From assembly GCA_965197585.1 (NCBI GenBank), contig OZ240215.1, positions 2,880,001 through 2,944,000 on the forward strand: a DNA stretch of 64,000 nucleotides. The letters are read 5' to 3'. The stretch's first letter is position 1, and the number at the start of each line of letters is the position of its first letter. This document shows positions 18,922 through 20,102 of this stretch, piece after piece. A program made the translations under genes and the position numbers. The stretch is from Dehalococcoidia bacterium (GTDB lineage: Bacteria > Chloroflexota > Dehalococcoidia > Plut-88900). Below the pieces are notes generated by a model that ran no database searches, had not been told where the DNA came from, and was given only the letters and a program-made list of their open reading frames with translations.

Positions 18922-19869
18922 TTAGCAACTGTGTTTGGGGAGGGGATTCCAAGGGGAATTGTCTCTGATCATGGCGTTAAGGATGGTGAGGAGCTTACGC
19001 ATACAGGCGACGAGGGCAACCTTGCCGGGCTTGCCGGCAGCGAGGAGATGCTCGTAGAAGGCTTTGATAGGAGGGTTATGGGTTCTGGCGGTCATTGTGG
19101 CCATGTAGAGTGCGGATCTGATGTTTGCCCGGCCGCCCCAGATGGAACGTCTTCCCCTATGAGTGCCACTGTCTCTGTTCAAGGGAGCGACGCCGACAAG
19201 GGCGGCGATCTGCTTACGGTTGAGGGAGCCGAGTTCGGGAAGGGAGCCTACGAGGGTGAAGGAGGATACGGAGCCAATGCCGGGGACATCCATGAGGAGG
19301 TTGAGCTTGCCCTTCCAGAGGGAATTGGAGTTAATGAGGTCGTCAATCTCCTTGTCCAGGTCATCGAGTTCCTGGGAGAGGAAGTGGATGTGTTTATGGA
19401 GGCTGGGGAGAAGAGGATCGAGGGCACGCTTGAGGCGAAGGGACTCGGCAGCTTTCATGTCGATGAGCTGCCGTCTGCGAGCGAGGAGGGCCTTGAGATG
19501 GGCTGCTTGAGGGTCTGGGAGAGGGCGGGGCTGGGGCCTGAGGGTGAAGGCGAAGAGGGCGATGGAGTGGGCGTCGATGGCATCGGTCTTGGCCAGTCTA
19601 CCGGTGGAGCGAGCGAAGTCCCTGATCTGCCTGGGGTTCATTACTGCAGTAGGTATCTGATTAAGGCCACACTCCAAAGCTAGGGGCCTCTCGAGGCCGC
19701 CGGTGGCCTCCATGACGATGAGGGTGACATTGAGGTCCTTGGCCAATTGGAGGATCTCTCTGATACCCTCAGCATCGTTGGGATGTCTGGCGGCCTGGTC
19801 TTGGGGGAGGACGTGAAGATCGAGGAACTGACTACTGACGTCGATGCCTATGACGGAGTCTTGACTCAT
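18922..19869 (-). CDS. IS110-family recombinase/transposase
   Basis: GIDVS, EATGG and KTDAIDA (DEDD); SG motif; [19 protein letters not shown]. Confidence 0.95.
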
Positions 19870-20033
19870 GTTATCCCTTTCTTGCAGGTACGGGTTGTTG
19901 ACCCGGGCAACTGTACGGGCTTAGATGAGAGTGGGTGCGGCGGCCCATGCTAAGACTCGGTCTTGAAGGACCACGATTCCTACGGCCTACCGCACCCCGA
20001 GACCCTAACTCTATCACTGCTTCGTCACACAAG
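18924..20033 (-). mobile_element. IS110 element inserted at a CT core in a family C repeat
   Basis: Minus-strand junctions GAGGAAT-CT-tgtgtg and cacagttg-CT-AAAGCG; the uninterrupted site GAGGAATCTAAAGCG is present in the duplicate near 20145-20159. Confidence 0.88.
19872..20001 (-). ncRNA. Putative IS110 bridge RNA
   Basis: Two internal loops carrying AGGAATC/TTAG (target matches) and ACAGTTGC/CAAG (donor matches); ends approximate. Confidence 0.75.
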
Positions 20034-20102
20034 ATTCCTCGCGGGGCCTCGGAATGACATGTAATAACGGAGGTGGGCATGGAGGGATGTGAGTGCGGAG
20101 AG

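What the first reader, a model, noticed from the sequence alone, without database searches (positions are those of the whole stretch)
18922..20059. IS110 with a fully readable bridge RNA programmed against a REP-like repeat
Seen on the minus strand: target GAGGAAT-CT-AAAG and donor junction ACAGTTG-CT-TGTG. The upstream non-coding end has loop 1 (outer stem GGGTGCGGT..GGCC/GGCC.GCCGCACCC, inner stem GGTC/GACC) with AGGAATC (19981-19975, left target) and TTAG (19953-19950, complement of CTAA). Loop 2 (inner stem CGGGT/ACCCG) has ACAGTTGC (19914-19907, left donor) and CAAG (19884-19881, complement of CTTG). Circularisation creates TTGCTT-17 nt-TAGAGT. There is no non-coding right end: the donor site lies in the last codons and the target completes the stop codon. 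Established: this matches the IS621 bridge-RNA mechanism. The compact (~130 nt) RNA and its target appear specific to this element.
Basis: partly seen in the sequence, partly recalled or inferred. Interest (0 to 1): 0.85.

Follow-up and report, generated by a model that had tools for sequence, protein, structure and literature searches.

The report
IS110 element with readable bridge RNA
This is a 1.1-kb IS110-family insertion sequence whose upstream end encodes a bridge RNA with loops matching its own ends and the genus-specific repeat it sits in, so it is a clear but ordinary new member of a known RNA-guided transposon family.

Summary
Observation confirmed; interpretation supported. Window 18924-20031 (minus strand) is a 1108-bp IS110-group element: a 162-nt left end, a 315-aa DEDD/Tnp recombinase and no non-coding right end.

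- **Protein:** it matches IS621 at E 1e-36, and all five catalytic residues align.
- **Copies:** seven copies in the genome share exact ends. Three are 100% identical at different sites.
- **RNA:** a covariance model built only from distant relatives (45-53% aa identity) hits the left end at 92.8 bits, E 5e-22. The two-loop fold is 92% paired, against 33-49% in slid controls.
- **Guides track flanks:** across 14 guide classes the right target guide pairs 4.0 of 5 non-core positions (1.68 permuted) and the left target guide 4.46 of 7 (2.47 permuted). No permutation of 20000 reached either value.
- **Handshake guides** follow the IS621 rule.
- **Target:** a 28-nt repeat with about 125 copies here, found in 9 of 9 genomes of the genus and 0 of 22 others searched.

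Corrections:
- The proposed circle-junction promoter is weak (7 of 12). The canonical one seen in relatives is lost.
- The repeat is not clearly palindromic.
- The target-supplied stop codon is not conserved in a sister species.
- The RNA architecture is not unique to this element.

Verdict: new member of a known kind, of modest interest.

The parts
20032..20059 (-). Left half of the target: one copy of the 28-nt dispersed repeat (TGTCATTCCGAGGCCCCGCGAGGAATCT). It ends in the CT core at 20033-20032.
   Evidence: 125 copies at up to 3 substitutions in the genome; 9 of 9 genomes of the genus, 0 of 22 others.
19870..20031 (-). Left end (LE), 162 nt and non-coding; encodes the bridge RNA.
   Evidence: Boundary fixed by 7 copies in different flanks. 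LE length. Covariance model R1 hits 19870-20001 at 92.8 bits, E 5e-22.
20008..20013 (-). Its -35 (TTGCTT) would form only in the circle.
   Evidence: Read. Scores 7 of 12 against consensus, the same as the best site in the integrated state. No promoter-like site was found in the integrated DNA. Weak and unverified.
19933..19997 (-). Target-binding loop module (65 nt): outer stem with a bulged invariant A, then LTG, a 4-bp hairpin and RTG.
   Evidence: Helices 1 and 2 are 93.5% and 98.7% paired with 6 compensatory pairs. RNAalifold finds the same stems independently.
19974..19982 (-). Left target guide (UAGGAAUCG). AGGAAUC equals target positions 2-7 plus the first core base. The second core position is G, not U.
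   Evidence: LTG versus left flanks: 4.46 of 7 against 2.47 permuted, 0 of 20000.
19950..19956 (-). Right target guide (GUCUUAG). Pairs with CT-AA of the right flank CTAAAGC, then a mismatch, a wobble and a G-C.
   Evidence: 3 Watson-Crick plus 1 wobble of 5 non-core positions for this copy. Family-wide 4.0 of 5 against 1.68 permuted, 0 of 20000.
19948..19949 (-). Target-loop handshake guide (CA). Complementary to donor positions 7 and 6 (G, T), not to the element's own target.
   Evidence: the first nucleotide pairs with donor position 7 in 23 of 25 cases and with its own target position 7 in 0 of 25. The rule comes from PMC11208158 section 11.
19875..19919 (-). Donor-binding loop module (45 nt): 3-bp outer stem CCC/GGG, then LDG, a 5-bp hairpin and RDG. 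The GGG lies in the likely ribosome-binding site, 8 nt before the ATG.
   Evidence: Helix 4 is 96.8% paired with 3 compensatory pairs. Helix 3 is 78.9% paired with none.
19906..19914 (-). Left donor guide (ACAGUUGCC). ACAGUUGC equals the last 7 nt of the RE plus the first core base.
   Evidence: The LDG covaries with the RE in one relative (ACGGUUG with an RE ending ACGGTTG-CT).
19881..19887 (-). Right donor guide (CUGCAAG). CAAG pairs with CT-TG at the LE start; two further G-U type wobbles are possible.
   Evidence: Pairing read by eye.
19879..19880 (-). Donor-loop handshake guide (AA). The first A is complementary to target position 7 (T).
   Evidence: 21 of 25 Watson-Crick with target position 7 and 0 of 25 with its own donor position 7. 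It is A where the target has T (this lineage and G029) and G where the target has C.
18922..19869 (-). Recombinase ORF, 315 aa: DEDD RuvC-like domain plus Tnp domain. D10, E54, D96, D99 and S234 align with the IS621 catalytic residues.
   Evidence: Pfam PF01548 7.6e-22 and PF02371 1.4e-17. NCBIfam NF033542 228 bits against a cut-off of 140. PDB IS621 1.1e-36 and ISCro4 1.7e-37. Residue numbers from PMC11208158.
18924..18932 (-). Right end and left donor site ACAGTTG-CT. It lies inside the last codons, so there is no non-coding RE.
   Evidence: the same RE end in all 7 copies and, with one-base variants, in all relatives.
18919..18923 (-). Right half of the target (AAAGC). Its first two bases complete the stop codon TAA with the T of the core.
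   Evidence: An uninterrupted paralogous site (repeat, CT, AAAGCG) lies at 20145-20178.

Best explanation
Window 18924-20031 (minus strand) is an IS110-group insertion sequence that moves by bridge-RNA-guided recombination of the IS621 kind. Its 162-nt left end is transcribed into an RNA of roughly 125-130 nt with two internal loops. The target loop reads the last bases of a genus-specific 28-nt repeat (AGGAAT plus C of the CT core) through the left target guide. It reads the bases after the core (CT-AA...) through a right target guide of up to 7 nt. The donor loop reads the joined ends of the element, ACAGTTG-C on one side and CT-TG on the other. The 315-aa DEDD/Ser recombinase bound to this RNA then exchanges strands at the CT core, helped by two handshake dinucleotides that pair only with the partner DNA. 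Shown here: the domains and catalytic residues, the exact ends, the conserved covarying RNA fold, the guide-flank and handshake covariation, and recent spread (three identical copies). Inferred from IS621: transcription, RNA-protein binding, the circular intermediate and the chemistry.
For: Protein: PF01548 and PF02371; NF033542 'IS110 family RNA-guided transposase' at 228 bits against a cut-off of 140; IS621 8wt6 E 1.1e-36 and ISCro4 9t56 E 1.7e-37, with D10/E54/D96/D99/S234-G235 aligned to D11/E60/D102/D105/S241-G242. Ends: 7 of 7 genomic copies start TGTGTGACG after CT and end ACAGTTGCT, each in different flanks. Copies c2, c3 and c4 are 100% identical over 1108 bp at three loci. RNA: model R1, built from 12 relatives at 45-53% aa identity without this lineage, hits 19870-20001 over its full length at 92.8 bits, E 5e-22. 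In the genome it finds only the 7 copies plus the 2 own-genome elements used to build it. My 27-pair structure is 92.2% paired against 33-49% when slid. Nine pairs show compensatory change (5 of 500 shuffles reach this), and covariation is 0.306 against 0.194 (0 of 500). RNAalifold recovers the same stems. Guides: over 14 guide classes and 22 distinct flanks, the RTG pairs 4.0 of 5 non-core positions against 1.68 permuted, and the LTG 4.46 of 7 against 2.47; both 0 of 20000. The result is the same without the nested locus L019. Within the lineage, guides ending UUAG sit at CTAA flanks, CUAG at CTAG, and in the sister genome G004 CCCCAG at CTGGGG in 6 of 6 copies. Handshake guides: 23 of 25 and 21 of 25 pair with the non-cognate DNA and 0 of 25 with the cognate DNA, as described for IS621. 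The target is a real repeat with unoccupied cognate sites: 133 AGGAATCT sites, of which 18 are followed by AGGAC, 4 by AAGGC and 2 by AAAGC.
Against: No direct evidence of transcription, a circle or excision. Only assembled contigs of public runs were available, and they showed no RE-LE joint and no empty-site joint. The canonical circle-junction promoter is present in 9 of 11 distant relatives at 9-10 of 12 but absent here. The proposed replacement scores 7 of 12, equal to background, and no promoter-like site is found in the integrated DNA. The single-sequence fold is not unusually stable (z -0.88). The window copy's own RTG-flank match is the poorest of the lineage: 3 Watson-Crick plus 1 wobble of 5. 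Within the window lineage alone, the RTG permutation test is not significant (4 classes, 1665 of 20000). The second core base is not matched by the LTG (G or A) or the LDG (C) in this lineage, unlike the rule stated for IS621. The donor-loop outer stem is only 3 bp and never varies. Guide classes are related by descent, so permutation values overstate independence.
Confidence: 0.9

Rival explanations
1. The family is bridge-RNA guided, but the window copy itself is an old, currently immobile insertion. It has lost the junction promoter and sits in a sub-optimal target, so it is a fossil, not a working element.
For: It is a single-copy variant, 96.4% identical to the three identical copies. Its RTG-flank match is the weakest in the lineage. 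The promoter is weak. Two sibling copies (c5, c7) carry a stop at codon 14, and the G005 copy is frameshifted, so decay does occur in this lineage.
Against: The ORF is intact at 315 aa with all catalytic residues. The loops and stems are intact and score like the siblings (92.8 against 88.7-95.6 bits). The promoter loss is shared with c2-c4, which clearly moved recently.
Confidence: 0.3
2. The LE is only a 5' UTR or translational control structure, the recombinase recognises the DNA by itself, and the loop-flank matches are coincidental or left over from the insertion event.
For: The donor-loop 3' stem overlaps the likely ribosome-binding site. The single-sequence fold is not exceptional. No RNA evidence beyond one 186-nt contig from an RNA library.
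Against: Guide-flank covariation across 14 classes (0 of 20000). The RTG is the reverse complement of the flank while the LTG is in the same sense, which is the strand logic of IS621. Handshake positions pair with the partner DNA in 23 of 25 and 21 of 25 cases and with the cognate DNA in 0 of 25. The unpaired A and G positions are invariant, as described for IS621.
Confidence: 0.03
3. It is an IS1111-type element using a seeker RNA encoded downstream of the transposase.
For: Same protein superfamily. The seekRNA preprint covers both IS1111 and IS110 types (passages only).
Against: There is no sequence downstream of the ORF inside the element: the ORF runs to the last base. The structured RNA is upstream in the LE. 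Only a short ACA/TGT-type inverted repeat flanks the donor core (read).
Confidence: 0.01

Closest known systems
IS621 of Escherichia coli (bridge RNA; Durrant et al. 2024, PMC11208160; Hiraizumi et al. 2024, PMC11208158)
   Same: DEDD plus Tnp recombinase with the same five catalytic residues. RNA encoded in the LE. Two pseudo-symmetric loops, each built as stem, guide, hairpin, guide. CT core. The LTG is in the sense of the top strand and the RTG is complementary to it. A 4-nt RTG extendable to 7. Handshake dinucleotides after the RTG and RDG. The target is a dispersed genomic repeat. The target loop module is 65 nt in both (nt 34-98 in IS621; 19933-19997 here).
   Different: Protein similarity is distant (E 1e-36). 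No room for the 5' stem-loop if the proposed start is right. The donor module is 45 nt against 68 nt, with a 3-bp outer stem. The LE is 162 nt, against a 177-nt RNA in IS621. The LTG and LDG match only the first core base. There is no non-coding RE, and the canonical junction promoter is missing. I could not align the IS621 RNA sequence itself; the comparison rests on the papers' descriptions.
ISPpu9 / ISPpu10 of Pseudomonas putida (IS110 elements inserted in REP sequences; PMC12288879 and bioRxiv 10.64898/2026.03.19.712850, abstracts only)
   Same: Multi-copy IS110 elements that insert into many copies of one conserved intergenic repeat.
   Different: Those targets are true palindromic REP hairpins, and one abstract proposes a structural match as well. 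The repeat here folds no better than shuffles.
Rfam RF02234 sX15 (Xanthomonadaceae sRNA; Schmidtke et al. 2011, PMC3300014)
   Same: The only Rfam family that matches the LE: 41.4 bits here, and 44.9 and 39.6 bits in two relatives. The paper reports sX15 and asX7 as a complementary pair with 10 homologs in Stenotrophomonas, as expected for an IS-borne RNA.
   Different: All three matches are below the gathering score of 55 and lie on the strand opposite the recombinase. If the families are related, the Rfam model represents the antisense strand of a bridge-RNA region. I did not test the Xanthomonas locus itself.
ISEc11 / ISXne4 'natural reprogramming' of seeker RNA (bioRxiv 10.1101/2024.04.26.591405, passages only)
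   Same: Related elements differ in their guide bases and in their targets.
   Different: Those are IS1111-type elements with the RNA downstream. Here the retargeting is seen between sibling copies within one genome and genus, and it affects only the right half-site.

Membership tests
IS110 family (IS110 group) bridge-RNA recombinase system | [quoted passage not shown] | tested here: met
   7.6e-22 and 1.4e-17, both above the curated cut-offs. NF033542 at 228.4 bits against 140.
IS110 family (IS110 group) bridge-RNA recombinase system | Catalytic D, E, D, D and the conserved Ser-Gly of the Tnp loop | tested here: met
   Alignment to IS621 chain 8wt6_A places D10, E54, D96, D99 and S234-G235 opposite D11, E60, D102, D105 and S241-G242 (numbers). 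The chain is offset by 2 residues.
IS110 family (IS110 group) bridge-RNA recombinase system | No terminal inverted repeats, no target duplication beyond a shared 2-nt core, and site-specific insertion | tested here: met
   Seven copies: CT on both sides, with no longer direct repeat and no terminal inverted repeat read at the ends. An uninterrupted paralogous site lies at 20145-20178. All 7 copies are in the same repeat.
IS110 family (IS110 group) bridge-RNA recombinase system | Long LE, short RE, and the RNA encoded in the LE | tested here: met
   LE 162 nt, RE 0 nt non-coding. R1 hit in the LE.
IS110 family (IS110 group) bridge-RNA recombinase system | RNA with two internal loops, each built as stem, guide, hairpin, guide, supported by covariation | tested here: met
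   Weak spot: the donor-loop outer stem is 3 bp and invariant.
IS110 family (IS110 group) bridge-RNA recombinase system | LTG and RTG match the target, LDG and RDG match the donor, and each includes the core | tested here: met
   Departure: in this lineage the LTG and LDG match only the first core base (G or A, and C, in place of U). The RTG and RDG match both.
IS110 family (IS110 group) bridge-RNA recombinase system | Handshake guides pair with position 7 of the non-cognate DNA and not with the cognate DNA | tested here: met
   23 of 25 and 21 of 25 against 0 of 25 and 0 of 25.
IS110 family (IS110 group) bridge-RNA recombinase system | Circular intermediate whose RE-LE junction rebuilds a promoter | tested here: inconclusive
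   Relatives: 9 of 11 have TTGAC(A/T/G)-17-TAT(C/A/G)TT at 9-10 of 12. This lineage reaches only 7 of 12. No junction contig was seen, but contigs cannot show rare forms.
IS110 family (IS110 group) bridge-RNA recombinase system | RNA is expressed, binds the recombinase and directs recombination | not testable with these tools
   The only hint is one 186-nt contig from an RNA library covering 19823-20008 with 3 differences. DNA carry-over cannot be excluded.
REP (repetitive extragenic palindromic) elements | Short sequence dispersed in many copies | tested here: met
   125 copies at up to 3 substitutions. 44-128 copies in each of 9 of 9 genomes of the genus; the reversed-pattern control gave 0.
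REP (repetitive extragenic palindromic) elements | Palindromic: forms a stable hairpin | tested here: not met
   Only a 5-bp ATTCC/GGAAT inverted repeat. Four copies folded as DNA gave z-scores of 0.84, 0.13, -0.64 and 0.64 against shuffles.
REP (repetitive extragenic palindromic) elements | Extragenic | not tested
   The window copy lies a few bases before the start of a GIY-YIG gene. I did not survey all copies against gene calls.
IS1111 group / seeker RNA | RNA encoded in a long RE, with subterminal inverted repeats of 7-17 bp | tested here: not met
   No RE non-coding sequence. The RNA is in the LE.

The most novel reading that the evidence does not exclude
This lineage may have coupled guide choice to protein termination and to its physical state. 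The recombinase ORF has no stop of its own. The T of the core plus target positions 10-11, which the right target guide selects (AA or AG), end it at 315 aa when integrated. In the circle, the frame runs on through the bridge-RNA gene, to 368 aa in c1 and c2 and 378 aa in c6 and G004. In the sister species, retargeting to CT-GGGG removes the stop and gives variable tails. If real, translation would report whether the element is integrated or free. In the circle it would also run through the bridge-RNA gene and the donor-loop stem at the ribosome-binding site, replacing the lost junction promoter as the state switch. In addition, defective copies c5 and c7 (stop at codon 14, intact RNA with different right guides) could supply guides in trans, giving one recombinase several right-half specificities.
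Probability: 0.12. Interest if true: 0.55.

Novelty: new member of a known kind. Interest (0 to 1): 0.3.

Why it matters
It adds a cleanly readable natural example of bridge-RNA targeting from uncultured Dehalococcoidia. I found no paper pairing IS110 with that class (0 papers hold both terms).

The most useful part is the natural experiment. The left guide stays fixed on one genus-wide repeat. The right guide has changed by point mutations to follow three different sequences that adjoin that repeat (CTAA..., CTAG..., CTGGGG...), within one genome and its sister species. The handshake positions obey the rule worked out for IS621.

This supports the generality of the published mechanism. It also offers a compact RNA (about 125 nt, with a 45-nt donor module) and a 315-aa recombinase as candidates for engineering.

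It does not change the picture of how these elements work. Bridge RNAs were already predicted in 85.7% of IS110-group elements (PMC11208160).

Tried and rejected
- **Circle junction and empty site in public data.** The runs found are kept only as assembled contigs. Laying X1, X3, X19 and X20 gave no go-back joint and no joint that skips exactly the element. The three joints listed have short sides (25-27 letters) and fall in repeated sequence. Contigs drop rare forms, so this says nothing about absence.
- **RNA evidence.** X19 and X20 contigs mostly cover conserved recombinase parts at 90-95% identity. One X20 contig covers 19823-20008. I do not count this as evidence of expression.
- **Rfam.** No bridge-RNA family exists in Rfam 15. 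The only matches are sub-threshold sX15 hits on the opposite strand.
- **The search for related loci.** With the single protein it returned only 1 locus. Relatives came from the genome search instead.
- **Single-sequence folding of the LE.** The minimum-energy fold recovers the target-loop stems, but its energy is not distinguishable from shuffles.
- **Promoter scan of the integrated locus.** 0 sites found.
- **Within-lineage RTG permutation.** Not significant (1665 of 20000), because only 4 similar classes exist.
- **REP hairpin idea.** Rejected.
- **Open frame through the LE in the circle as a signal.** About 0.19 probability by base composition (my estimate), and the copies are not independent, so I keep it only as the novel case.
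- **Not done.** I did not run the search for homologous proteins, the search of protein representatives, structure prediction or complex prediction, because the family assignment was already unambiguous.
- **Supplementary files** of PMC11208160 (lists of predicted bridge RNAs and targets) could not be seen. I cannot say whether this element or its clade is already in those tables.
- **Literature on a target-supplied stop codon in IS110 elements.** One search (4 papers hold the terms, 3 listed) plus stop-codon passages of one preprint found nothing on it. This is not proof that it is unpublished.
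Full report
**What is there.** On the minus strand, a copy of a 28-nt repeat (20059-20032) ends in GAGGAAT-CT.
- The element starts TGTGTGACG at 20031.
- A 162-nt non-coding left end (LE) runs to the ATG at 19869.
- A 315-aa ORF runs to 18922.
- The element ends ACAGTTG-CT at 18932-18924.
- The stop codon TAA (18924-18922) is the T of the core plus AA of the flank, which continues AAAGCG.

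The element is 1108 bp counting one CT. About 120 nt upstream, at 20145-20178, lies an uninterrupted paralogous site: the same repeat, then CT, then AAAGCG. So the insertion added nothing but the element.

**The protein.**
- Pfam gives DEDD_Tnp_IS110 (7.6e-22) and Transposase_20 (1.4e-17).
- NCBIfam gives NF033542, 'IS110 family RNA-guided transposase', at 228 bits against a cut-off of 140.
- The only solved relatives are ISCro4 (E 1.7e-37) and IS621 (E 1.1e-36).
- In the IS621 alignment, D10, E54, D96, D99 and S234-G235 stand opposite D11, E60, D102, D105 and S241-G242. Those are the residues shown to be essential in PMC11208158 (passages).

**Copies and ends.**
- The genome (3.43 Mb, one contig) holds 7 full copies. 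All have the same first and last bases in different flanks.
- Copies c2, c3 and c4 are 100% identical over 1108 bp at three loci, so that variant moved recently. The window copy is 96.4% identical to them.
- Copies c5 and c7 have a stop at codon 14 but keep the RNA region.
- Left flanks are GAGGAATCT in 5 of 7 copies, GAGGGATCT in c6 and CAGGAACCT in c7.
- Right flanks are CTAAAGC (window), CTAAGGC (c5, c7) and CTAGGAC (c2-c4, c6).

**The RNA.** Relatives were found in 11 of 61 related genomes at E up to 1e-40, counting this one.
- The close lineage (83% aa identity or more) is in 3 of 9 genomes of the genus.
- More distant elements (44-53% aa identity) are multi-copy in G003 and G011, and are also present in this genome.

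I took the LE of 19 distinct elements (alignment A1). A structure I wrote by eye has 27 pairs in 4 helices.
- It is 92.2% paired, against 33-49% when the 3' partners are slid by 1-3 columns.
- Nine pairs change on both sides; 5 of 500 shuffles reach that.
- The covariation score is 0.306 against 0.194; 0 of 500 shuffles reach that.
- RNAalifold, run independently, returns the same target-loop outer and inner stems, the donor-loop hairpin and a 3-bp outer stem.

A covariance model built from the 12 distant sequences only, with the RNAalifold structure (A2 and R1), gives two results.
- It hits the window once above noise: 19870-20001 minus, full length, 92.8 bits, E 5e-22.
- In the whole genome it hits exactly the 7 copies plus the two own-genome elements that were in the model.

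The unpaired invariant positions are a bulged A in the outer stem, a G before each guide and an A in each hairpin. They correspond to the flipped-out A and syn G nucleotides described for IS621 (section 7 of PMC11208158). This is a match to a description, not an alignment to the IS621 RNA.

**Guides against flanks.** Taking guide positions from fixed alignment columns, I compared each element's guides with its own flanks. I then permuted guide classes among flank groups.

| Guide | Own flanks | Permuted mean | Permutations reaching observed |
|---|---|---|---|
| RTG, 5 non-core positions | 4.0 | 1.68 (sd 0.31) | 0 of 20000 |
| LTG, 7 non-core positions | 4.46 | 2.47 (sd 0.36) | 0 of 20000 |

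The test covered 14 classes and 22 distinct flanks.
- Locus L019 has a left flank that is itself a copy of an LTG. Dropping it leaves LTG 4.26 and RTG 4.0, still 0 of 20000.
- L017 is misaligned by one column and was left as it is, which counts against the model.
- L015 and o2 have right flanks that look like an LE start (donor-like) and score 1 and 0 of 5. They were kept.
- Several distant elements pair all 7 right-guide bases with the flank: G011b, its variant L041, G003a, 2 of 3 G003b copies, and o1.

Within the window lineage the pattern is as follows.

| Copies | Right guide | Right flank |
|---|---|---|
| window copy | GUCUUAG | CTAAAGC |
| c5 | GUCUUAG | CTAAGGC |
| c6 | GUCUUAG | CTAGGAC (position 4 by G-U wobble) |
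| c7 | GCCUUAG | CTAAGGC (7 of 7) |
| c2-c4 | GCUCUAG | CTAGGAC |
| G004, 6 of 6 copies | GCCCCAG | CTGGGG(T/C) |

With only 4 similar classes, the lineage-only permutation is not significant (1665 of 20000). The classes are related by descent, so the family-wide figures overstate independence.

**Donor side and handshake.**
- The left donor guide ACAGUUGC equals the last RE bases plus C. In G011b both the guide and the RE read ACGG in place of ACAG.
- The right donor guide ends CAAG, opposite CT-TG.
- The nucleotide after the RTG pairs with donor position 7 in 23 of 25 element-flank combinations, and with the element's own target position 7 in 0 of 25.
- The nucleotide after the RDG pairs with target position 7 in 21 of 25 (plus 1 wobble), and with its own donor position 7 in 0 of 25.
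- That nucleotide is A where the target has T (this lineage and G029) and G where the target has C.
- In G056, where the RE ends ...TTA-CT, the target-loop position is U.

This is the rule reported for IS621 handshake guides (section 11 of PMC11208158).

**Departures from IS621.**
- In this lineage the LTG and LDG match only the first core base. PMC11208160 says both core bases are included in each pairing.
- The donor module is 45 nt with a 3-bp invariant outer stem. Its GGG lies 8 nt before the ATG, in the likely ribosome-binding site.
- There is no non-coding RE.

**The promoter.**
- In 9 of 11 distant relatives, joining RE to LE gives TTGAC(A/T/G), 17 nt, TAT(C/A/G)TT at 9-10 of 12. The first hexamer is in the RE and the second is at LE bases 3-8. 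That is the published junction promoter (PMC11208160 passages).
- In the window lineage both hexamers are gone.
- The scan tool finds nothing in the integrated DNA.
- How the RNA is expressed here is therefore open.

**The target.**
- The 23-nt core of the repeat occurs 125 times at up to 3 substitutions.
- It occurs 44-128 times in each of 9 of 9 genomes of the genus, and in 0 of 22 genomes of other genera searched. The reversed-pattern control gave 0.
- The close IS lineage is in only 3 of those 9 genomes. So the repeat is older than the element and independent of it.
- Several alternative sequences follow the repeat. Of 133 AGGAATCT sites, 23 are followed by GGGG, 18 by AGGAC, 6 by AACGC, 4 by AAGGC, 2 by AAAGC and 5 by this IS. 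Unoccupied cognate sites therefore exist.
- The repeat has only a 5-bp inverted repeat and folds no better than shuffles. It is dispersed, but it is not shown to be a REP hairpin.

**The stop codon.**
- All 7 copies here end with T plus AA or AG from the flank.
- In G004 the flank is GGGG, so the ORF runs on: 327 and 355 aa in the two copies I translated. Open frames of 344-386 aa were reported for the six copies.
- The feature is real but not conserved.

**Public reads.** Only assembled contigs were available. They break at the element's ends, as expected for a repeat. They show no junction or empty-site joint. One 186-nt contig from an RNA library covers 19823-20008. None of this bears on activity.

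**Comparison and verdict.** The element meets every sequence-level criterion of the IS110 group with an LE-encoded bridge RNA that I could test. It fails the IS1111/seekRNA criteria. Expression, RNA binding and recombination could not be tested.
- Natural retargeting between related elements has been described for seeker RNAs (passages).
- Bridge RNAs were predicted in 85.7% of IS110-group elements.
- No paper in the library pairs IS110 with Dehalococcoidia. One relative's public record is titled a Dehalococcoidia MAG.

It is a new member of a known kind.

Noticed in passing
window 17518-18573: A 1056-bp IS481-like element: rve domains, NF033577 at 184 bits (below its cut-off of 224), and terminal inverted repeats of about 24 nt. 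It is inserted in the same 28-nt repeat, in its 5' arm. Of 16 genomic copies found through both ends, 14 are flanked by a 5-bp ATTCC duplication. Two unrelated IS families therefore use one repeat as a landing site.
   Followed up: partly
window 18608-18952 and 20080-20150 (minus strand): The IS sits a few bases before the start of a GIY-YIG nuclease gene (PF01541, 1.3e-13). The sequence just after the repeat (AAAGCG, then the first codons PRKPH.EYYVYI) recurs upstream as a truncated paralogue. The repeat plus the gene's 5' end may therefore be one repeated module.
   Followed up: no
window 19858-20008 (+); L013 2426-2585 (+); L021 1029-1157 (-): Rfam sX15 (RF02234, Xanthomonadaceae sRNA) matches the bridge-RNA region at 39.6-44.9 bits, below its gathering score of 55, and always on the strand opposite the recombinase. 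The original paper reports sX15 and asX7 as a complementary pair with 10 homologs in Stenotrophomonas. That Rfam family may be the antisense strand of an IS110 bridge-RNA region.
   Followed up: partly
L019 (G029), first ~120 nt of the oriented locus: A partial LE copy (first 53 nt) ends exactly at the CT of its own left target guide and is followed by a complete element. It looks as though the DNA encoding the LTG served as a target. It lies at a contig start, so an assembly artefact is possible.
   Followed up: no
L015 (G045) and G000:C1 near 2221957 (o2): In two elements the RE is followed by TGTAT, the start of an LE, rather than a flank matching the right target guide. This is a donor-like right flank of the kind that a 2026 preprint's abstract calls half-match recombination.
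   Followed up: no
whole genome G000: The orientation of the 28-nt repeat follows local GC skew. Between 1.0 and 2.6 Mb (skew down to -0.18), 68 copies are on + and 4 on -. In 0.6-1.0 and 2.6-3.0 Mb (positive skew), 33 are on - and 4 on +. The skew is large and changes sign only over parts of the chromosome.
   Followed up: no
G000:C1:2796183-2797292 (c5) and 1486119-1487249 (c7): Two copies have a TAG at codon 14 but intact bridge-RNA regions (95.6 and 88.7 bits). c7 has the best right-guide match of all (7 of 7). They could supply guides in trans.
   Followed up: no
window 18924-20031, read as a circle: If the ends are joined, the recombinase frame stays open through the whole LE and stops one base before its own ATG: 368 aa, covering 1107 of 1108 bp. 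The LE is also open in the shifted frames of c6 and G004 (378 aa). The chance of this from base composition is about 0.19, and the copies are related.
   Followed up: partly
G000:C1:1850409-1851484 (o1): A second, distant IS110 element in the same genome (50% aa identity) has its own bridge RNA. Its guides match a different, clearly palindromic site (GCTCACC-CT-GAGCA), with 5 of 5 right-guide positions paired.
   Followed up: partly
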